Of a stretch of 62,527 nucleotides of DNA, positions 4,160 to 32,376 are shown one piece after another (the first letter of the stretch is position 1; each line of letters begins with the position of its first letter). The stretch comes from Candidatus Hydrogenedens sp. (GTDB taxonomy: Bacteria; Hydrogenedentota; Hydrogenedentia; Hydrogenedentales; Hydrogenedentaceae). The notes below the pieces were generated by a model. That model saw only the letters and a program-made list of their open reading frames with translations, searched no databases and had not been told where the DNA came from. The stretch is taken from NCBI GenBank assembly GCA_049968235.1, contig JBMFRC010000017.1:1-62527 (forward strand), written 5' to 3'. The translations under genes were made by a program, and so were the position numbers.

Positions 4160-5146
4160 ATGTCGATAAGCGTTCAAGCAATTCGAGCACGAGTGGAACG
4201 ATATGCAGATATATTATCGCATGTACAGAATGAAATAGGAAAAGTTATTGTTGGACAACAATATATGATAGGACGTATGTTAGTTGGATTGTTAGCCAAT
4301 GGACATGTTCTTTTAGAAGGAGTTCCGGGTCTCGCCAAAACCACTGCAGTAAATACTCTCGCAAAAACCTTAGATTGTTCCTTTCATCGTATCCAATTTA
4401 CTCCAGACCTATTACCTGCAGATTTGATAGGAACATTGGTATATAACCCTAAAACGGGTGAATTTACCACTAAAAAAGGACCTGTTTTCGGCAATATTAT
4501 CTTAGCAGATGAAATTAATCGTGCACCGGCAAAAGTGCAAAGTGCTCTGTTAGAAGCAATGCAAGAGAGACAGGTTACCATTGGCGATAATACTTATAAA
4601 TTGGAAGAACCTTTTATGGTTCTTGCCACGCAAAATCCTATTGAGCAAGAAGGCACATACCCATTACCAGAAGCACAGGTTGACCGATTCATGCTTAAAT
4701 TAAAAGTTACATATCCTAATAGAAATGAAGAAAAAACAATTCTCGAAAGAATCGATTTGCTTCATCAACCGAGTGTCTCAACAATACTTTCAAAGCAACA
4801 AGTATTGGAAATGAGAGAAGTCGTAAATCAAATCTATGTAGATGAGAAAATTAAAAATTATATAGTTGATATTGTTCAAACAACAAGAAACCCGGATTTA
4901 TTCGGATTAAAAATAAACCATCTAATTGAATATGGTGCATCTCCGCGTGCTTCATTATATTTACAACAAACAGCCAGGGCATGGGCATTTTTACAGGGAG
5001 AAGGGAATGTTTTCCCTCATGATATAAAAACAATGGCTCCGGATGTCTTACGCCATCGTATAAAAGTTTCTTATGAAGCAGAAGCAGAAAATATTACAAG
5101 CGAAGATATTATTCAGAAAATACTTGACCATGTTCCTGTTCCATAA
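4160..5146 (+). CDS. MoxR-family AAA+ ATPase (AAA_3).
   Basis: VGQQYMIGRMLVGLLANGHVLLEGVPGLAKT (Walker A), ILADEINRAPAKVQSALLEAMQERQVTI (Walker B / sensor region), 328 aa. Shine-Dalgarno AAGGAG upstream. Confidence 0.9.
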   Translation: MSISVQAIRARVERYADILSHVQNEIGKVIVGQQYMIGRMLVGLLANGHVLLEGVPGLAKTTAVNTLAKTLDCSFHRIQFTPDLLPADLIGTLVYNPKTGEFTTKKGPVFGNIILADEINRAPAKVQSALLEAMQERQVTIGDNTYKLEEPFMVLATQNPIEQEGTYPLPEAQVDRFMLKLKVTYPNRNEEKTILERIDLLHQPSVSTILSKQQVLEMREVVNQIYVDEKIKNYIVDIVQTTRNPDLFGLKINHLIEYGASPRASLYLQQTARAWAFLQGEGNVFPHDIKTMAPDVLRHRIKVSYEAEAENITSEDIIQKILDHVPVP

Positions 5147-5155
5147 AAAGGCATT

Positions 5156-6046
5156 ATGGATAATATGTTAACAGCAGAAATGTTAGCCAAAGTCCGAAGA
5201 ATACAAATTCGGACTACCAAATTAGTAAATGATATTCTTGCCGGAAGATATGAAAGTGTCTTCCGTGGGCAGGGAGTTGAATTTAAGGAAGTGCGTGAAT
5301 ATGTGCCGGGGGATGATGTCCGTAATATTGATTGGAATGTTACTGCACGAACAGGTAGTCCCCATGTAAAAGTACTAACAGAAGAACGCGAACTTACTAT
5401 TATGCTCGTAGTAGATGCCAGTGGCTCACAAAGGTTCGGTTCTGTTTCTCAATTCAAATTAGAATTATCTGCTGAAGTGTGTGCGGTTCTTGCTTTCTCT
5501 GCTATTCAAAATAATGATAAGGTAGGTCTTGTTGTATTCACAGATGAGGTCGAGTTATTTTTGCCTCCACGGAAAGGAAGAAAATATGGATTAAGGGTTA
5601 TTCGTGAGGTTTTGTATCATGAACCCAAAAGTAAAAAGACCAATATAAATAAGTCTCTGGAATTTTTATCCCAAATCTTGAAACGCAGGTCTGTTATATT
5701 TATATTGTCTGATTTTAAAGATGAGCAATATGAAAAAACACTGAGAGTCCTTGCCCGCAGACATGATGTTATAGCCTGTATGATAACAGACCCGAGAGAA
5801 TTATCTCTGCCCGATATAGGTCTTATTACAGTTACTGATTCGGAAAGCGGAAAAGAAATTATTATTGATACAGGGAATGCAAAGTCTCGGGAGAGATACG
5901 CTACCCAAGCAAAAATGGAATATGAAAAGAAAAAGAAACTTTTGCTCCAATCAGGTGCGGAGTTTTTAGATATCCGAACAGATAAACCTTATATTGATGA
6001 ATTATATCGTTTCTTCCGTGCTCGTGAACGGAATTCAAACCGTTAA
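5156..6046 (+). CDS. DUF58 family protein (vWA-like, MoxR partner).
   Basis: FKEVREYVPGDDVRNIDWNVTARTG and LVVDASGSQRFGS, which are classic DUF58 motifs. 9-nt gap after the MoxR gene. Confidence 0.85.
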   Translation: MDNMLTAEMLAKVRRIQIRTTKLVNDILAGRYESVFRGQGVEFKEVREYVPGDDVRNIDWNVTARTGSPHVKVLTEERELTIMLVVDASGSQRFGSVSQFKLELSAEVCAVLAFSAIQNNDKVGLVVFTDEVELFLPPRKGRKYGLRVIREVLYHEPKSKKTNINKSLEFLSQILKRRSVIFILSDFKDEQYEKTLRVLARRHDVIACMITDPRELSLPDIGLITVTDSESGKEIIIDTGNAKSRERYATQAKMEYEKKKKLLLQSGAEFLDIRTDKPYIDELYRFFRARERNSNR

Positions 6047-6077: not shown

Positions 6078-6992
6078 ATGACATTTTTAAATATTTTTAT
6101 TAATATATGTCTTTTTGCAGTATCCGCAGGGGATGTAGGTGTTGAATTGTATAATCCCCGTATCCCATGGTTTCGTTCTTCTGAATATGTTATTCGAAAT
6201 TATGAAGTGGACAATAAAAATTGCCCTGAATGGAAAAATTTGTATGAAGAAATAGAGATTACAGAAAAACCAATAATAGGGGCTGAACATGAAGGATGTG
6301 TTAAAAAGGTTATTATTGACCCTATAAAATCAGGTAAGTATTTGATACCTTCATCTGTTGTAAAAAATAAAGAGGGGAAGGAATGGGAGACTTCTTCATT
6401 CGTTCTGGATGTTCGAGAACCTACTGATAAGGAAAAGGAAGAAATACAAAATATTGCAGGAATTATTGAACCCCAAATTGGGAATACTTACAAGAATCTA
6501 ATTGTAAATAGTTTGTTGGTTATTTCCCTTTTAATTGCTGTTGCATGTTCTATTTATTTATGGAAGAGATATTATATTAAGGGTAAAAGTATTGAAGAAA
6601 AGGTGGAACTACCGTGGGAAAAAGCATTCCGAAGATTGAGAGACCTGAAAGCAAAGGATTTGCCTTCTCAAAGTTTGTATGAACCTTATTATGTCCAATT
6701 AACATGGATACTTCGTTATTATATTGAAGACCGATTTAATATTCATGCTCCGGAACAAACTACTCAGGAGTTTATTGAAACCACCATGAAAGAAAAGGTC
6801 CTTACATCAGAGCAACAAAAATTGCTGTATTCCTTTTTAAGCCATTGCGATAAAGTGAAATTTGCTCAATTTGTTCCGACCATTGAACAAATGGAAGCAG
6901 GATATAATTTGGTGTGGAATTTTATTGAAGACACAAAGTTAAAGGAACAACCAAAAGAAGAAGGAAATCAACAGAATAGGGTATTACAGTGA
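6078..6992 (+). CDS. DUF4381-like membrane protein (signal peptide, TM, cytoplasmic xPExTxxEF domain).
   Basis: TM LIVNSLLVISLLIAVACSIYLW, then PWEKAFRRLRDLKAKDL...HAPEQTTQEFIE. Position between DUF58 and batA matches the canonical Bat operon order. Confidence 0.5.
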   Translation: MTFLNIFINICLFAVSAGDVGVELYNPRIPWFRSSEYVIRNYEVDNKNCPEWKNLYEEIEITEKPIIGAEHEGCVKKVIIDPIKSGKYLIPSSVVKNKEGKEWETSSFVLDVREPTDKEKEEIQNIAGIIEPQIGNTYKNLIVNSLLVISLLIAVACSIYLWKRYYIKGKSIEEKVELPWEKAFRRLRDLKAKDLPSQSLYEPYYVQLTWILRYYIEDRFNIHAPEQTTQEFIETTMKEKVLTSEQQKLLYSFLSHCDKVKFAQFVPTIEQMEAGYNLVWNFIEDTKLKEQPKEEGNQQNRVLQ

Positions 6993-28439: not shown

Positions 28440-29750
28440 ATGGATAAACGAGAATATATTGTATCAAAACTGTTTTGGATAATTTTACTTCTATTTTTCT
28501 TATCTTTGGGTTTTATATTCCAGAGTATATATCTTGTTTATGCAATTTATGTCTTTTTGATTATTTTTATAATTTCTGATTTCCTCAACAGGCTATGGTT
28601 AAAGGTTATAGAGTGTAATCGTAATGTCGGTCCATTGATAATTAATGAAGGACAGGAAGTAGAAGTAACTGTTTTTGTGCGTAATAAATTTTGGTTACCC
28701 ATCCCATGGTTGTATGTTGAGGATATAATTCCTTCGGGAAGTGAATGTATAGGGTCAAATGCTCAATTTTTAATGCTTATGCCCAATGAAATGATTACGA
28801 TTTCTTATAAATTACGATTTCCCCGACGAGGTTATCATAAAGTTGGACCCTTAATGTTAGAAACAGGCGATTTCTTTGGATTGCAAAGACGATTCCGCAC
28901 AGACGATAAGCAAGAATATATTACTGTATTACCTTCTGTGGTTTATATAAAAAGTTTTCAAGTATCTACACGCAGACCTCATGGTCCTATTAGAGTATCT
29001 CATAAGATTTATGAAGACCCCACACGAATTTACGGAATAAGGGAATATGTGCCGGGGGACCCAATAAAATCAATTCACTGGAAAGTCTCCGCTAAAGCGA
29101 ATAAATTACAGGTAAAAACCTATGAACCTGCAACTGTATTAGGAGCCACTCTTGCTATAGATATGTTTGAGGACAACTATCTCCCGCAAACAAGAGAAGA
29201 AAGGATGGAATTGGCAATTACAACAACTGCATCTATTGCTTACCTCCTTTATCTTTCGGGTGAACCTGTTGGACTGATTACAAATGGACTTGATGCAAGT
29301 GATAAGGCAAAATATTTTAGAGAACGGGAAACAGCCCTTGCTCGTGATGATCTGATTAAAAAATTGGTACAGGAGACACAGACAGAGCATATATCTCCCC
29401 TTAAGGTCCCTACAAAAAGGTCACCTGTCCAATTACAAAAAATATTAGAAAACCTTGCAAGAATTGTTCCTAATAAAGAGGTTAATATGACTTATCTCTT
29501 ACAAATAACGGCACCTCATATCCCCAGAGACAATGCTCTTGTATTGATAGTTCCTCAAGTTTCAGATGACCTCGCTTCAGTAATTGAAAATATGAAAGCA
29601 AGGGGATTTATTGTTAATGTATTTATAATTAAAGATGACAATGCCTATCAAGAGGCCGTTATTAAATTAGGAAAATTAGGGATTTTTGTTTTTCATATAC
29701 AGCATGAACAAGATTTGTTTTACATAGCACCGCAAAAGATTGGAGTTTGA
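28440..29750 (+). CDS. DUF58-family protein with N-terminal TM helices (a second MoxR-partner-type protein, with no MoxR adjacent).
   Basis: Two N-terminal TMs. IYGIREYVPGDPIKSIHWKVSAKANKLQVKTYE, the DUF58 core. 436 aa. Confidence 0.8.
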   Translation: MDKREYIVSKLFWIILLLFFLSLGFIFQSIYLVYAIYVFLIIFIISDFLNRLWLKVIECNRNVGPLIINEGQEVEVTVFVRNKFWLPIPWLYVEDIIPSGSECIGSNAQFLMLMPNEMITISYKLRFPRRGYHKVGPLMLETGDFFGLQRRFRTDDKQEYITVLPSVVYIKSFQVSTRRPHGPIRVSHKIYEDPTRIYGIREYVPGDPIKSIHWKVSAKANKLQVKTYEPATVLGATLAIDMFEDNYLPQTREERMELAITTTASIAYLLYLSGEPVGLITNGLDASDKAKYFRERETALARDDLIKKLVQETQTEHISPLKVPTKRSPVQLQKILENLARIVPNKEVNMTYLLQITAPHIPRDNALVLIVPQVSDDLASVIENMKARGFIVNVFIIKDDNAYQEAVIKLGKLGIFVFHIQHEQDLFYIAPQKIGV

Positions 29751-31489
29751 TGATGAAAATTCCAGAATGGATGGAAGACGGCAGTTTATCGTGGAGCGAA
29801 AAGAAAGAAGAACCTTCATCTAAACCAGTAACGGATGAAACTCCACCTCCTCGAATCCCTGTCCGGGAGGATTTTTTGGATATAAATATAATAAGAAACA
29901 AAAAAATTGGAGATATGGATTTTCACGCAAATTGGACTCTTACCGACACGCTTCTTAGTTTTATCAATCCCTTTCTTATTTTAATATTACTATGGTCTAT
30001 TGTATTTTTTCTGTTGGATGTTCGATATATATATACTGAGGTGAATGATAGGAATTTAAGGTTTGTTGTTTTTTGTTTTATTTTAGGTGTTGTGGCTGTA
30101 AACAGGATTTTTGCCACAGAAAGTGTGGAAGATGGGGTTGTGTATGGTTTTGCTTTGGGTTTAACAATAAGTTTTTATGTTGTAGTTAGTACCTCTATGT
30201 ATGGAACAGGTTCCTTTATATATAACCTCGTGACAGGAAATAATTTTATGGCATTCTTGTCCAACATGGGCGTAGTAATATTTTTATGGTGGCTTACGAA
30301 CAGGATAACTTACGAATGTTGTATTGATGAAAATATAAATGCCGGAGCAATTGGTATTACTACCAGTTTGAGTAAAGCATTTGAAAAAAGTAAACAGCAA
30401 AAGCCCCGAAAAGACCCTAAAATGCAAGGTCCTGATTTATTCTATGAATTGGAAGCGGTTGACCCTACACAATTAATATTTAAAGACCCTTCAGTAAAAG
30501 ATATTACTTTTAATGTTATGGGATTTGGAGACCGACTTTCTAAGATTCCTGCAGGTATATCAATATTATTCTTCAGTATCCCTGTTATGGGGATTTTCTC
30601 TTTAGGACTTCGTATTCTCGTAAATGGGGGTCAGAAGATAGTAAACGTCGGATGGTTTTATCTTGTGTTGTATGTCTTTTCTGCTTTATTGCTTCTTGTT
30701 ATGACAAGTCTTGGAGGACTTAGAGAATATTATAAAGTGAGGAAAGTTGCCGTCCCTTCATTGTTAGGTATTACATGGGTAATTTCCGGGATGTTAATTA
30801 TTATTATTGCTATGGTAAGTTCTGCCTATCTTCCATTACCTGCATTGCCAAAACCTTTTTATGTTGCAGAACATCAAGTGGACCCCTGGGTTCGTGAAAG
30901 CACTTTTCAATTAAATCCGGTTGTAGCAACTCCCATGGAAATATGGGAACAACAGATGATATTCCAAAAATTAGGATATGTGATAATCACACTTCTTGTT
31001 TTTGTCAGTATGTGGATTCTGTTTCAGGTAATTAAAAGACTATTTATAGAGTGGTTACAGATATCCGTGCAGAAGGGTGGAATTGGATTTCAGTGGTTAA
31101 GAAAATTTGTTGAACGAAGACCTAAGCAATTAAAAATCAGGAAGAAAGTATCCGTAAGTAAATCTAAATCAATTAAATTTGTTAACTCGTTATCCCATCC
31201 AGAAATGAGTAAGAAATTTAATCCAAATGAGCATATTGAATATGCATATCAGGCACTTTGTGCTCTGGCAGAAGATCTAGGTGTGCCTAAGAAACATAGT
31301 GAAACCCCATTAGAATTTTTGAAAAATTTGCCACAAAGTTTAGAAGTATTACGCGAAGAGATAGAAGAAATTACTCAACTATATCAAATTGTCGTTTTTT
31401 CACCGATAGTGTTTGATGAAAAAATTCTGGACCGTTTACGCAAATTTTGGATTTCATATAATCGAGTGAGAAACAAAATTGTGTATTAA
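29750..31489 (+). CDS. Polytopic membrane protein with a C-terminal DUF4129-like domain.
   Basis: Multiple TMs. C-terminal HIEYAYQALCALAEDLGVPKKHSETPLEFLKNLPQ (xPETPxEF signature). TGATG overlap with the DUF58 gene. Confidence 0.55.
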   Translation: MMKIPEWMEDGSLSWSEKKEEPSSKPVTDETPPPRIPVREDFLDINIIRNKKIGDMDFHANWTLTDTLLSFINPFLILILLWSIVFFLLDVRYIYTEVNDRNLRFVVFCFILGVVAVNRIFATESVEDGVVYGFALGLTISFYVVVSTSMYGTGSFIYNLVTGNNFMAFLSNMGVVIFLWWLTNRITYECCIDENINAGAIGITTSLSKAFEKSKQQKPRKDPKMQGPDLFYELEAVDPTQLIFKDPSVKDITFNVMGFGDRLSKIPAGISILFFSIPVMGIFSLGLRILVNGGQKIVNVGWFYLVLYVFSALLLLVMTSLGGLREYYKVRKVAVPSLLGITWVISGMLIIIIAMVSSAYLPLPALPKPFYVAEHQVDPWVRESTFQLNPVVATPMEIWEQQMIFQKLGYVIITLLVFVSMWILFQVIKRLFIEWLQISVQKGGIGFQWLRKFVERRPKQLKIRKKVSVSKSKSIKFVNSLSHPEMSKKFNPNEHIEYAYQALCALAEDLGVPKKHSETPLEFLKNLPQSLEVLREEIEEITQLYQIVVFSPIVFDEKILDRLRKFWISYNRVRNKIVY

Positions 31490-31506: not shown

Positions 31507-32376
31507 TTATTTTTTTGTTAATTGATTTAATAACATATCTGCCTTTTGATGCTCTCCACAGTTTCTTAATAAATCAATAGCAAGGTCATATCTTTTCTCT
31601 AAAATCATCTGATTACTTAGCGGTTCTAAAAGAGATTTTTTATATTTATCTGGAATATTATGAATTCCATCTTTATAGATATATTGAATAATTTTATTTA
31701 AAAAAATGGCTTTTTCTTGAGGATTATTGGCTAATATATTCATCCATTTTAACCATAATGAAACGGCTCTTTTATAATATCCTGCTTCCCACCATAAAAA
31801 ACTTGCAGTATCCAGTATTCCTTTCTTTTCTAACCATCTCCCTGCTTTTTTTGTTTTCCCAACACTTGTCAATAACTGAACTGCCTGTTGGGGTTCATTG
31901 GCTTTTAGTAATAGTTTTGCTGAATATTCTGTTTTTCCCGCTTTTGCATATTCTGTTGCAGACCTTATTAACATCCCAGCTTTTTCAAATGCCCAACCTG
32001 CTTCTTTATATCTCTGCATGGATGCATACACTTCCCCTAACTGGGCATATTTTTTTTCTTTTTTTAATCGTTCTATCGTTTGTTGAGGTGCTTTTAGAGA
32101 TTCAAGTTGTTGAATAAATTCGGATTCTTTATCTACTGTTTCTGAGGAAGGAGGAATAACTGGTATACTTTCCGATACAAATTTCCGACTTTGCCAAAAT
32201 TTATGAATTCTAAGGTAAATCTCGTAAATTAATAAAAGGATAACAAAAGTAATAACGACTTTTACTACTATAGGTGTCCAGGGCTCTATAAGTTCATAAC
32301 CGAAAATATCTTCAACCTTAGAGATAAGTTTACCTAAAAACTGATTCCAATACCAGTAAAAAATCTTCAAGCCCAT
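31507..32376 (-). CDS. Membrane-anchored TPR-like repeat protein.
   Basis: N-terminal TM VVKVVITFVILLLIYEIY. Helical repeats with YAQLGEVYASMQRYKEAGWAFEKAG-type TPR signatures. Confidence 0.45.
   Translation of the reverse strand: MGLKIFYWYWNQFLGKLISKVEDIFGYELIEPWTPIVVKVVITFVILLLIYEIYLRIHKFWQSRKFVSESIPVIPPSSETVDKESEFIQQLESLKAPQQTIERLKKEKKYAQLGEVYASMQRYKEAGWAFEKAGMLIRSATEYAKAGKTEYSAKLLLKANEPQQAVQLLTSVGKTKKAGRWLEKKGILDTASFLWWEAGYYKRAVSLWLKWMNILANNPQEKAIFLNKIIQYIYKDGIHNIPDKYKKSLLEPLSNQMILEKRYDLAIDLLRNCGEHQKADMLLNQLTKK

What the first reader, a model, noticed from the sequence alone, without database searches (positions are those of the whole stretch)
28440..31489. MoxR-less DUF58 + DUF4129-like membrane-protein pair at the window centre, mirroring the DUF58-DUF4381 pair in the Bat operon
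The 28440 gene is a long, TM-anchored DUF58 protein (IYGIREYVPGDPIKSIHWKV). It is translationally coupled (TGATG overlap) to a 580-aa polytopic membrane protein whose C-terminal domain carries the HSETPLEFLKNL signature. The same xPE(T)TxxEF signature closes the DUF4381-like protein (HAPEQTTQEFIE, 6078..6992) that follows the first DUF58 in the Bat operon. The window therefore holds two DUF58 + PExTxEF-membrane-protein modules, but only one MoxR ATPase and only one set of vWA proteins. Either the second module borrows the MoxR from the Bat operon in trans, or it works without an ATPase. Neither module has a characterised function.
Basis: partly seen in the sequence, partly recalled or inferred. 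Interest (0 to 1): 0.55.

Follow-up and report, generated by a model that had tools for sequence, protein, structure and literature searches.

The report
DUF58–DUF4129 membrane pair lacking its MoxR
Two tightly coupled genes of a Candidatus Hydrogenedens genome encode a membrane-tethered vWA-like adaptor (DUF58) and an eight-helix membrane protein ending in a DUF4129 domain; relatives in other phyla usually have a MoxR ATPase gene directly upstream, this phylum never does within the DNA I could see, and the function of the whole system is unknown.

Summary
ORF A (28440..29750) is a DUF58 protein: an N-terminal helical hairpin, a beta-sandwich and a vWA fold. ORF B (29747/29750/29753..31489) is an eight-helix membrane protein with a C-terminal DUF4129 domain. 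The genes abut. The only MoxR in the 62.5 kb window is the Bat-operon one, 23 kb upstream.

New here: the pair is a stand-alone unit in seven independent Hydrogenedentota contexts, with no MoxR within 10 kb. Full-length homologues of both proteins in Planctomycetota and some Verrucomicrobiota form a MoxR-DUF58-DUF4129 triad in 34 of 68 resolvable loci. Annotated genomes of four other phyla link MoxR, DUF58 and a DUF4129 or transglutaminase membrane protein. So the pair is the ATPase-unlinked form of a widespread, uncharacterised three-gene system.

ORF A keeps 75 positions that are near-invariant in triad orthologues. Its non-canonical MIDAS is shared with them and is not a result of losing MoxR.

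The "mirror" with the Bat operon is weakly supported. The 6078 protein has no Pfam hit. Its family gives only sub-threshold DUF4381 and DUF4129 matches.

Whether a MoxR acts in trans or the pair works without one could not be settled: a genome-wide MoxR count was not possible. Modest interest; a new variant of a known kind.

The parts
28440..29750 (+). ORF A: long, membrane-tethered DUF58 protein (436 aa)
   Evidence: Pfam DUF58 58.7 bits. 339 homologues, with the Hydrogenedentota orthologues at 45-93% identity. Mean column identity is 66% across 28 sequences.
28446..28607 (+). ORF A N-terminal two-helix membrane hairpin (residues 3-56). Basic residues on both flanks imply that the globular part is cytoplasmic.
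   Evidence: AF2 helices 3-26 and 30-56; hydrophobic segment 14-32. The topology is inferred from the positive-inside rule applied to the sequence.
28608..28931 (+). ORF A beta-sandwich domain (residues 57-164)
   Evidence: AF2 model: strands 57-164, pLDDT 83-93.
28950..29138 (+). ORF A signature stretch of DUF58 (residues 171-233: ...YEDPTRIYGIREYVPGDPIKSIHWK...). It is the most conserved part of the protein but is modelled with low confidence.
   Evidence: Invariant columns R179-K226. Conserved also in planctomycete triad orthologues. pLDDT is below 50.
29145..29729 (+). ORF A vWA-fold domain (residues 236-430), with a non-canonical MIDAS position: D241-M-F-E-D245 (29160..29174) in place of DxSxS.
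29747..31489 (+). ORF B: eight-helix inner-membrane protein with a C-terminal DUF4129 domain. It is 580 aa from TTG 29747; alternative starts are ATG 29750 and ATG 29753.
   Evidence: 90 close homologues, all Hydrogenedentota where a source gives a phylum name, except one partial protein labelled Nitrospiraceae. 763 cluster representatives at E<=1e-30.
29750..29938 (+). ORF B N-terminal disordered tail (residues 1-63), inferred to be cytoplasmic. Relatives in the phylum carry TDFxSL repeats here; the window protein has only degenerate copies.
   Evidence: pLDDT below 50. TDFxSL in 19 of 30 Hydrogenedentota sequences and 0 of 27 planctomycete homologues.
29939..30346 (+). ORF B helices 1-4 and the conserved motif WWLTNRITYECCIDENINAG (residues 180-199), placed on the cytoplasmic side by the inferred topology.
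   Evidence: AF2 helices 64-95, 100-123, 126-150 and 165-190. Invariant W180, C190, D193, E194. The motif is shared with planctomycete homologues.
30557..31039 (+). ORF B helices 5-8 (residues 270-430), with a short predicted periplasmic loop at residues 360-394
   Evidence: AF2 helices 270-293, 295-330, 339-359 and 395-442. Basic loops LREYYKVRK and KRLF...RKK indicate the cytoplasmic sides.
31244..31450 (+). ORF B DUF4129 domain, with the invariant T-P-x-E-F (T519, P520, E522, F523; 31304..31318)
   Evidence: Pfam DUF4129 43.9 bits; invariant T519 and E522. hhalign probability is 100% against the planctomycete C-terminal domain and 84% against the T. roseum DUF4129 protein.
4160..5146 (+). 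The only MoxR (AAA_3) gene in the window, first gene of the Bat-type operon. It is the candidate trans-acting ATPase; that role is not shown.
   Evidence: Pfam AAA_3 224 bits and AAA_lid_2. It is the sole MoxR hit in the window.
5156..6046 (+). Bat-operon DUF58: short, soluble, with canonical MIDAS VVDASGS. Included for comparison.
   Evidence: Pfam DUF58 268.5 bits and VWA_2; sequence; only 28% identity to ORF A over 81 residues.
6078..6992 (+). Bat-operon membrane protein: an N-terminal hydrophobic segment, then (inferred topology) an exported domain that matches BatD below threshold in 17 of 34 family members, one TM helix, and a cytoplasmic C-terminal helical domain with HAPEQTTQEF. Included for comparison.
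   Evidence: No Pfam hit for the window protein. Family-level sub-threshold matches to DUF4381 (22/34), BatD (17/34) and DUF4129 (5/34). TM prediction.

Best explanation
ORF A and ORF B are the membrane-proximal core of a MoxR-DUF58-DUF4129 system whose ATPase gene is not linked to it in the phylum Hydrogenedentota.

Shown:
- ORF A has an N-terminal helical hairpin, a beta-sandwich and a vWA-fold domain.
- ORF B has eight long helices and ends in a small helical DUF4129 domain with an invariant TPxEF.
- The two genes are always adjacent.
- Orthologue-level relatives in Planctomycetota sit directly behind a MoxR AAA+ gene in half of the resolvable loci.

Inferred:
- The hairpin tethers ORF A to the inner membrane with its globular domains in the cytoplasm, and the DUF4129 domain of ORF B is also cytoplasmic (positive-inside rule).
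- The DUF58 vWA domain docks on the DUF4129 domain of its membrane partner. These two modules stay constant while the membrane or periplasmic part varies between phyla.
- A MoxR hexamer, where present, remodels or loads this complex. This is how MoxR-class ATPases work with vWA adaptors in NorQ-NorD, CbbQ-CbbO and RavA-ViaA.
- In this genome the ATPase is most likely supplied in trans. It could be the Bat-operon MoxR 23 kb upstream, the only one in view, or an unlinked paralogue outside the window.

What the complex does at the membrane is unknown.
For: - Phylum-wide stand-alone pair: seven independent contexts, with gaps from -32 to +25 nt between the two genes, flanks that differ, and no AAA_3 within 10 kb.
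- Full-length homologues of ORF B outside the phylum score 250-290 bits over profile positions 58-580. They carry only DUF4129 in Pfam.
- Of 80 GTDB loci, nearly all Planctomycetota: 31 contiguous MoxR->DUF58->DUF4129 triads, plus 3 with an insertion; 7 pairs without MoxR; 27 with the membrane gene alone; 12 at contig edges. The triad DUF58s are 33-36% identical to ORF A over nearly its full length (typically residues ~10-430). The triad MoxR is AAA_3 at 215 bits.
- ORF A shares 75 positions that are >=90% conserved in both the pair-only and the triad groups. These include the whole YEDPTRI..R.Y..GDP...HW signature and the same non-canonical MIDAS position. This argues for an unchanged core mechanism.
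- The DUF58 + DUF4129 association is constant across different membrane modules. T. roseum has MoxR-DUF58-DUF4129, with only the DUF4129 domain alignable to ORF B. Listeria has MoxR-DUF58-TgpA-like, with Transglut_core plus a near-threshold C-terminal DUF4129 match (24.2 bits, cut-off 24.8). Actinomyces has MoxR-DUF58-transglutaminase, with Transglut_core only at E<=0.001. Haloferax has DUF4129-DUF58 with a MoxR nearby.
- A MoxR is present in the same genome region.
Against: - No physical interaction was tested or modelled. DUF58-DUF4129 docking rests on gene co-occurrence only.
- In a planctomycete locus where both systems occur (L011), the Bat-type and triad-type modules each keep their own MoxR. 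That argues against free sharing of one ATPase.
- The window MoxR is no closer to triad MoxRs (41-46% identity) than to a Bat-type one (49%).
- A DUF58 surface patch that is >=90% conserved in triads (NGRDAADRIRQEGW), and kept in planctomycete pair-only loci, has diverged in Hydrogenedentota. This could mean loss of an ATPase contact.
- In the P. aeruginosa tgpA operon the first gene, PA2875, could be disrupted without loss of viability, while tgpA is essential (PMC3507681). That PA2875 is the MoxR is my own knowledge; the paper does not say so.
- The MIDAS motif is non-canonical throughout the subfamily, so the integrin-style metal-mediated ligand contact may not apply.
Confidence: 0.5

Rival explanations
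1. The pair works without any AAA+ ATPase. DUF58 would be a static cytoplasmic regulator or assembly partner of the membrane protein, and MoxR would be an accessory that Hydrogenedentota has dispensed with. The phylum-specific N-terminal TDFxSL tail of ORF B might then take over a regulatory role.
For: - No MoxR in cis in 7 of 7 Hydrogenedentota contexts.
- Even in Planctomycetota, 7 loci are pair-only and 27 have the membrane gene alone.
- The triad-conserved DUF58 patch has diverged in Hydrogenedentota only.
- The N-terminal tail with TDFxSL repeats is present only in the MoxR-unlinked phylum: 19 of 30 against 0 of 27.
- PA2875 is dispensable in P. aeruginosa.
Against: - 75 positions near-invariant in triad orthologues are retained, including the DUF58 signature stretch.
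- Gene unlinking does not show functional independence.
- A MoxR exists 23 kb away.
- The window's own ORF B has only degenerate copies of the tail motif.
Confidence: 0.33
2. The pair is a second copy of the same kind of module as the Bat-operon DUF58 + 6078 protein and functions as part of the Bat system.
For: - Both modules are a DUF58 gene followed by a membrane protein with a cytoplasmic helical C-terminus carrying [EQ]T[PT]xEF.
- The 6078 family gives sub-threshold DUF4381 (22/34) and DUF4129 (5/34) matches on exactly that region.
- hhalign puts the motifs in register.
- The 23-24 kb spacing to the Bat operon is kept in one related genome.
Against: - hhalign probability is 1-3%, and the window's 6078 protein has no Pfam hit.
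- The two DUF58s are only 28% identical over 81 residues. They differ in architecture (soluble versus hairpin + beta-sandwich) and in MIDAS (DASGS versus DMFED).
- In more distant Hydrogenedentota the pair has unrelated flanks.
- In planctomycetes the module has its own MoxR, separate from the Bat one (L011).
Confidence: 0.12
3. The pair is a decaying remnant of a triad that lost its ATPase and no longer functions.
For: Absence of the MoxR gene in cis.
Against: - Intact ORFs in every genome examined.
- ORF A has 66% mean column identity and ORF B 40% across the phylum, with many invariant residues.
- Adjacency is conserved despite complete turnover of the flanking genes.
Confidence: 0.02

Closest known systems
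MoxR - DUF58 - DUF4129 membrane protein triads of Planctomycetota (and some Verrucomicrobiota); uncharacterised, seen here in GTDB genomes
   Same: - Both proteins are homologous over nearly their full length. ORF A is 33-36% identical. ORF B matches at 250-290 bits across its helices, the WW..LT..C..DE motif, the LGLRxY motif and the DUF4129 domain.
- Gene order and tight spacing are the same.
- The non-canonical MIDAS position is the same.
   Different: - A MoxR gene lies directly upstream in 34 of 68 resolvable loci there, and in none here.
- The planctomycete ORF B homologues lack the N-terminal tail. They carry a long low-complexity insert between helices 7 and 8.
MoxR - DUF58 - TgpA-type transglutaminase operons (P. 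aeruginosa PA2875-PA2874-tgpA, PMC3507681; bifidobacterial PFNA cluster, PMC12067865; Listeria and Actinomyces examples)
   Same: A long DUF58 is followed by a polytopic membrane protein. In the Listeria example that protein's C-terminus gives a near-threshold DUF4129 match (24.2 bits, cut-off 24.8). The Actinomyces transglutaminase protein showed no DUF4129 at E<=0.001. The genes are tightly coupled or co-transcribed.
   Different: - ORF B has no Transglut_core and no DUF3488.
- It has no large periplasmic domain.
- Its membrane part shows no detectable homology to TgpA-like proteins.
- There is no MoxR in cis.
Bat (Bacteroides aerotolerance-type) operon: MoxR-DUF58-DUF4381-like-BatA-BatB-TPR-BatD-TPR, present in this window at about 4.1-13.4 kb
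   Same: It contains a DUF58 followed by a membrane protein with a cytoplasmic helical end carrying an [EQ]T[PT]xEF motif. MoxR-class systems are of unknown mechanism.
   Different: The Bat DUF58 is short and soluble with canonical MIDAS. The partner is single-pass, with an N-terminal domain that gives sub-threshold BatD matches and is inferred to be exported. The operon includes vWA BatA/BatB and TPR proteins. Homology of the C-terminal domains is not significant.
[not shown]
   Different: In those systems the adaptor uses a canonical MIDAS and the target is a soluble or redox enzyme. Here MIDAS is D-x-[FH]-x-[D/x], the putative target is a membrane protein of unknown function, and the ATPase gene is unlinked.
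Thermomicrobium roseum TRD_RS12235-12245 (MoxR family ATPase, DUF58, DUF4129 domain-containing protein; RefSeq annotation)
   Same: The same three families occur in the same order. Its DUF58 aligns to ORF A residues 33-424 at 25% identity. Its DUF4129 domain aligns at 84% hhalign probability.
   Different: The membrane part of the T. roseum DUF4129 protein (469 aa) is not alignable to ORF B, and a MoxR is present in cis.

Membership tests
DUF58 (PF01882) | Match to the Pfam model above the gathering score, including the R-x-Y-x-x-G-D-x-x-R/K-x-I-x-W signature | tested here: met
   58.7 bits against 23.4, residues 200-341 on profile positions 2-129 of 216. The signature REYVPGDPIKSIHWK is present. 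Only the first 60% of the model is matched.
vWA / MIDAS-containing domains | Rossmann-like vWA fold | tested here: met
   [not shown]
vWA / MIDAS-containing domains | Canonical MIDAS motif D-x-S-x-S after strand beta-1 | tested here: not met
   ORF A has D241-M-F-E-D. The phylum consensus is D-L-H-E-D and planctomycete triad orthologues have D-F-H-x-x. The Bat DUF58 in the same window has D-A-S-G-S.
DUF4129 (PF13559) | Match to the Pfam model above the gathering score at the C-terminus of a membrane protein | tested here: met
   43.9 bits against 24.8, residues 500-568 on profile positions 1-68 of 69; 46.7 bits on the isolated C-terminal fragment.
TgpA-type transglutaminase membrane proteins | Transglut_core (PF01841) domain in a large periplasmic loop | tested here: not met
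   No Transglut_core hit in ORF B at E<=0.1, nor in 10 distant homologues. The model has only a 35-residue loop at that position. The positive controls Listeria and Actinomyces score 89.8 and 67.5 bits.
TgpA-type transglutaminase membrane proteins | DUF3488 (PF11992) N-terminal membrane domain | tested here: not met
   No Pfam hit. hhalign of the family profile against the Listeria and Actinomyces TgpA-like proteins aligns nothing outside the C-terminal region. Sensitivity is limited, since a single sequence was used on one side.
MoxR-DUF58-DUF4129/TgpA three-gene system | MoxR (AAA_3) gene adjacent to the DUF58 gene | tested here: not met
   The nearest MoxR is 23 kb upstream, in the Bat operon. 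None lies within 10 kb in six other Hydrogenedentota loci. The feature is met in 34 of 68 planctomycete loci.
MoxR-DUF58-DUF4129/TgpA three-gene system | DUF58 gene immediately followed by a membrane protein gene ending in DUF4129 | tested here: met
   for the window; for relatives.
MoxR-DUF58-DUF4129/TgpA three-gene system | A MoxR of the matching clade somewhere in the same genome | not testable with these tools
   Only 10 kb around a named gene can be fetched.
DUF4381 (PF14316), for the Bat-operon protein 6078..6992 | Match to the Pfam model above the gathering score | tested here: not met
   The window protein has no hit at E<=10. In its family, 22 of 34 members match below threshold, best 25.9 bits against 27.2.
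Known anti-phage defence systems (PADLOC) | Match of ORF A or ORF B to any PADLOC model | tested here: not met
   No hit at E<=0.01.

The most novel reading that the evidence does not exclude
The DUF58-DUF4129 pair is an autonomous membrane module that needs no AAA+ partner. On this reading Hydrogenedentota is a natural MoxR-free lineage. A phylum-specific N-terminal tail of the membrane protein, carrying TDFxSL short linear motifs, replaces ATPase-driven control. DUF4129 would be the universal docking domain for DUF58-type vWA adaptors, with the invariant Glu of TPxEF as the contact. That would give the first functional assignment to both DUFs.
Probability: 0.25. Interest if true: 0.5.

Novelty: new variant of a known kind. 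Interest (0 to 1): 0.3.

Why it matters
MoxR-DUF58 operons are among the most widespread uncharacterised AAA+ systems in bacteria and archaea. They include the Bat operons, the mycobacterial moxR loci, and the operon of the essential P. aeruginosa tgpA. Nobody knows what DUF58 or DUF4129 do.

This analysis shows three things:
- DUF58 and DUF4129 are the constant partners across at least five phyla, while the membrane or periplasmic part changes.
- One family lacks the transglutaminase entirely. It has eight helices, is common in Planctomycetota and is present throughout the Hydrogenedentota sampled here.
- In every Hydrogenedentota context examined (7 of 7), that family's ATPase gene is unlinked.

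This gives a clean comparative handle for asking which parts of DUF58 serve the ATPase and which serve the membrane partner. Three states can be compared: triad, pair, and membrane gene alone. The analysis does not reveal a new kind of system.

Tried and rejected
- Exact look-up of the 580-aa ORF B found nothing, because the database gene call starts at ATG 29753.
- NCBIfam has no model for either protein.
- Full-length hhalign of the 6078 family against the ORF B families aligned only basic juxtamembrane stretches. Domain-only hhalign put the TxEF motifs in register but was not significant.
- A metagenome scan for 6078 homologues returned only four close relatives.
- Names for the planctomycete-tier proteins were not available from cluster look-up. 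Taxonomy came from the GTDB record titles instead.
- The idea that ORF B is a TgpA that lost its transglutaminase domain was rejected: no homology of the membrane parts was detected.
- The idea that the degenerate MIDAS results from losing MoxR was rejected: triad orthologues have the same substitution.
- Promoter and terminator scans gave no more sites than shuffled sequence.
- A defence-system reading was rejected.
- The literature has essentially nothing on DUF4129: two papers, both incidental.


Full report
SOURCE AND OBSERVATION

The window is a 62,527-nt NCBI contig of a Candidatus Hydrogenedens sp. MAG, phylum Hydrogenedentota, 35% G+C.

ORF A (28440..29750, +, 436 aa) matches Pfam DUF58 at 58.7 bits (cut-off 23.4). 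The match covers residues 200-341 and only the first 60% of the model.

ORF B (29747..31489, +) matches Pfam DUF4129 at 43.9 bits (cut-off 24.8) over residues 500-568. NCBIfam has no model for either protein.

TTG 29747 and ATG 29753 are in the same frame, and a GGAG lies at 29742-29745. The NCBI call in a sister assembly starts at the equivalent of 29753 (578 aa). The genes are tightly coupled whichever start is used.

Searching the window's own proteins against all its ORFs finds exactly one MoxR (4160..5146; AAA_3 at 224 bits). It also finds two DUF58 genes and two vWA genes, BatA-like and BatB-like.

ANATOMY OF ORF A

An AlphaFold model built on 28 orthologues has mean pLDDT 76. It shows:
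- two N-terminal helices (residues 3-26 and 30-56) forming a hairpin;
- a beta-sandwich (residues 57-164);
- a low-confidence stretch (residues 171-233);
- an alpha/beta domain (residues 236-430).

Basic residues flank both ends of the hairpin (MDKREY...; ...NRLWLKVIECNR). I infer that the globular part is cytoplasmic.

The canonical MIDAS D-x-S-x-S is absent. ORF A has D241-M-F-E-D, and the phylum consensus is D-L-H-E-D. The Bat-operon DUF58 in the same window has D-A-S-G-S.

The low-confidence stretch is the most conserved part of the protein (...YEDPTRIxGIREYVPGDP..IHWK...).

ANATOMY OF ORF B

The model, built on 30 orthologues, has mean pLDDT 77. It shows:
- a disordered 63-residue N-terminus;
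- four long helices (residues 64-190);
- a conserved segment WWLTNRITYECCIDENINAG, with W180, C190, D193 and E194 invariant;
- a disordered basic loop (about residues 215-260);
- three more helices (residues 270-359);
- a 35-residue loop;
- an eighth long helix (from residue 395);
- a compact helical C-terminal domain, which is the DUF4129 match. T519 and E522 of ETPLEF are invariant.

Basic loops (LREYYKVRK; KRLF...RKFVERRPKQLKIRKK) place the N-terminus, the Cys-acidic motif and the DUF4129 domain on the cytoplasmic side. This topology is an inference from the positive-inside rule.

CONSERVATION WITHIN THE PHYLUM

ORF B has 90 close homologues. All are Hydrogenedentota where a source gives a phylum name, except one partial protein labelled Nitrospiraceae. 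ORF A has 339; the best 120 are at 45-93% identity.

Seven independent genomic contexts were read: the window, L002, L003, L004, L091, L092 and L093. ORF B identity in these goes down to 35%.
- All have the DUF58 gene directly in front of the DUF4129 gene, from a 32-nt overlap to a 25-nt gap.
- None has an AAA_3 gene within 10 kb.
- All flanks are unrelated, apart from L003.
- L003 shares the window's synteny. Its Bat operon lies 24 kb upstream, as in the window.

The pair is therefore a self-contained, selectively maintained bicistronic unit. That rules out a decaying remnant.

RELATIVES OUTSIDE THE PHYLUM

A profile search of 1.84 billion cluster representatives gave 763 proteins at E<=1e-30. 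A second tier scores 250-290 bits and covers the whole protein except the N-terminal tail. Ten of these proteins carry only DUF4129 in Pfam and no transglutaminase core.

Aligned with ORF B, they share the helices, the WW..KLTWDC..IDE motif, the LGLRRYLRQR motif and the C-terminal domain.

A scan of GTDB genomes returned 80 loci. Nearly all are Planctomycetota (Gemmataceae, Pirellulales, Planctomycetaceae, Thermoguttaceae), with a few Verrucomicrobiota.

I mapped the window's MoxR, ORF A and ORF B onto these loci. The counts were corrected by hand where stop-to-stop ORFs overlap:
- 31 contiguous MoxR -> long DUF58 -> DUF4129 triads;
- 3 triads interrupted by an insertion;
- 7 DUF58 -> DUF4129 pairs without a MoxR upstream;
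- 27 loci with the membrane gene alone;
- 12 loci at contig edges.

The triad DUF58s are 33-36% identical to ORF A over nearly its full length (typically residues ~10-430). The triad ATPase is a bona fide AAA_3 MoxR at 215 bits.

So the window's pair is the ATPase-unlinked form of a three-gene system. Linkage to MoxR is frequent but facultative even in Planctomycetota.

WIDER PATTERN

tblastn of ORF A against annotated plasmids and chromids found four examples.
- Thermomicrobium roseum: MoxR family ATPase -> DUF58 -> DUF4129 domain-containing protein. Only the DUF4129 domain is alignable to ORF B, at hhalign probability 84%.
- Actinomyces oris: MoxR -> DUF58 -> transglutaminase membrane protein (Transglut_core only at E<=0.001).
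- Listeria monocytogenes: MoxR -> DUF58 -> TgpA-like protein, with Transglut_core at 89.8 bits plus a C-terminal DUF4129 match at 24.2 bits, just under the 24.8 cut-off.
- Haloferax mediterranei: DUF4129 -> DUF58, with a MoxR nearby.

The literature gives matching cases. A review (PMC12067865) describes the bifidobacterial PFNA cluster as containing a MoxR-subfamily AAA-ATPase, a DUF58 protein and a transglutaminase. The tgpA paper shows that P. aeruginosa PA2875-PA2874-tgpA is co-transcribed (PMC3507681).

Across these systems the DUF58 adaptor is constant and a DUF4129-type C-terminus recurs in most of them. The membrane or periplasmic part varies. On this I base the inference that the vWA-like domain of DUF58 docks on DUF4129.

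ORF B is not a TgpA:
- it has no Transglut_core and no DUF3488;
- it has no large periplasmic domain;
- its membrane part is not alignable to TgpA-like proteins.

TRANS-ACTING MoxR OR NONE?

For an unchanged, ATPase-served mechanism:
- 75 positions of ORF A are >=90% conserved with the same residue in both the Hydrogenedentota (pair-only) group and the planctomycete (triad) group. These include the signature stretch.
- The unusual MIDAS substitution is shared, so it is not a consequence of losing MoxR.

For independence:
- A patch that is >=90% conserved in triads (NGRDAADRIRQEGW), and kept in planctomycete pair-only loci, has diverged in Hydrogenedentota.
- Hydrogenedentota ORF B proteins have gained an N-terminal tail with one to three TDFxSL motifs: 19 of 30 against 0 of 27 planctomycete homologues. 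The window's own copy is degenerate.
- In P. aeruginosa the first gene of the tgpA operon can be disrupted while tgpA is essential. That PA2875 is the MoxR is my own knowledge.

Against simple sharing of the Bat MoxR:
- In locus L011 a Bat-type MoxR+DUF58 and a triad sit head to head, each with its own MoxR.
- The window MoxR is 41-46% identical to triad MoxRs and 49% to that Bat-type one.

A genome-wide MoxR count in Hydrogenedentota would decide most of this. It could not be done with the remaining tools.

I put ATPase supplied in trans (the Bat MoxR or an unlinked paralogue) at about 0.5 and ATPase independence at about 0.33.

THE MIRROR WITH THE BAT OPERON

The 6078..6992 protein has four parts:
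- an N-terminal hydrophobic segment;
- a domain of about 120 residues;
- one TM helix (residues 141-159);
- a C-terminal helical domain with HAPEQTTQEF.

I infer that the 120-residue domain is exported and the C-terminal domain is cytoplasmic.

The protein has no Pfam hit, not even its C-terminal fragment at E<=10.

Its family is confined to Hydrogenedentota by the names given (one member carries a Bathyarchaeia label, probably a mis-binned contig). Among 34 members:
- 22 give sub-threshold DUF4381 matches (best 25.9 bits, cut-off 27.2);
- 17 give sub-threshold BatD matches on the N-terminal domain;
- 5 give sub-threshold DUF4129 matches (best 22.6 bits, cut-off 24.8), aligned exactly on the TTQEF...VKFA region.

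Profile-profile comparison of the isolated C-terminal domains puts APEQTTQEF and R..qTPyEF in register. The probability is only 1-3% and E is 0.014-0.055. Full-length comparison fails.

The resemblance is a lead and not a demonstrated homology.

The two DUF58 proteins differ clearly:
- they are 28% identical over 81 residues;
- one is soluble, the other has a hairpin and a beta-sandwich;
- one has a canonical MIDAS, the other does not.

OTHER CHECKS

Neither protein matches any PADLOC defence model. Promoter and terminator pattern scans are at background level. The literature on DUF4129 is essentially empty.

VERDICT

The pair is a new variant, ATPase-unlinked and without a transglutaminase, of a known but uncharacterised gene neighbourhood: MoxR-DUF58-DUF4129/TgpA. 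Its value is comparative, since the triad, pair and solo states of one orthologous system could be used to dissect what MoxR does for DUF58. It is not a surprise for a specialist. Interest 0.3.

Noticed in passing
window 29750..29938; homologues in alignment A1: Hydrogenedentota ORF B proteins have a 50-90 residue disordered N-terminal tail with one to three copies of TDFxSL (19 of 30 sequences). The window's own protein has only degenerate copies (DGSLSW, REDFLDIN). Planctomycete homologues, which mostly have MoxR in cis, have neither the tail nor the motif (0 of 27).
   Followed up: partly
window 30287..30346: The motif WW..N[RK]LT.[ED]C[CT].[IV]DE...AG follows helix 4 of ORF B. It is conserved from Hydrogenedentota to Planctomycetota (C190, D193 and E194 invariant in the phylum). 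By inferred topology it is cytoplasmic, and it could be a metal or ligand site.
   Followed up: no
loci L006-L085 (alignment A3, columns ~450-650): Planctomycete ORF B homologues carry a 100-250 residue low-complexity insert rich in K, D, G, S and Q. It lies in the loop between helices 7 and 8, which is predicted to be periplasmic. Topologically this is where TgpA proteins have their transglutaminase domain.
   Followed up: no
L011 5398..11854 (Gemmataceae MAG JBJMQT010000153.1): A Bat-type MoxR+DUF58 on the minus strand and a triad-type MoxR+DUF58+DUF4129 on the plus strand sit head to head. Each DUF58 has its own MoxR in this genome.
   Followed up: partly
window 29283..29330 (ORF A residues ~282-297): The patch NGRDAADRIRQEGW is >=90% conserved in planctomycete triad DUF58s and kept in planctomycete pair-only loci. 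It reads NGLDASDKAKYFRE in the window and is variable across Hydrogenedentota. It is a candidate ATPase-contact surface.
   Followed up: partly
window 28950..29138 (ORF A residues 171-233): The most conserved stretch of the DUF58 protein is the one AlphaFold models with pLDDT below 50. This is consistent with a segment that folds only on a partner, or with a shallow alignment.
   Followed up: no
window 6078..6992: The N-terminal domain of the Bat-operon membrane protein gives sub-threshold BatD (DUF11-like) matches in 17 of 34 family members. The protein may therefore combine a BatD-like domain, inferred to be exported, with a DUF4381/DUF4129-like cytoplasmic end.
   Followed up: partly
window 31507..32376 (-) ; L001 3151..4032: The convergent downstream gene (289 aa, one TM helix, weak TPR-like hits) is a single ORF in the window. 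It is called as two ORFs (109 + 180 aa) in the sister assembly GCA_049971155.1, which suggests a frameshift or an assembly difference.
   Followed up: no
L095 (Haloferax mediterranei pHME322, 179246-189238): In this haloarchaeal replicon the order is reversed: a 256-aa DUF4129 protein, then a 660-aa DUF58. The MoxR is on the opposite strand and a baseplate J/gp47-family gene lies next to it.
   Followed up: no
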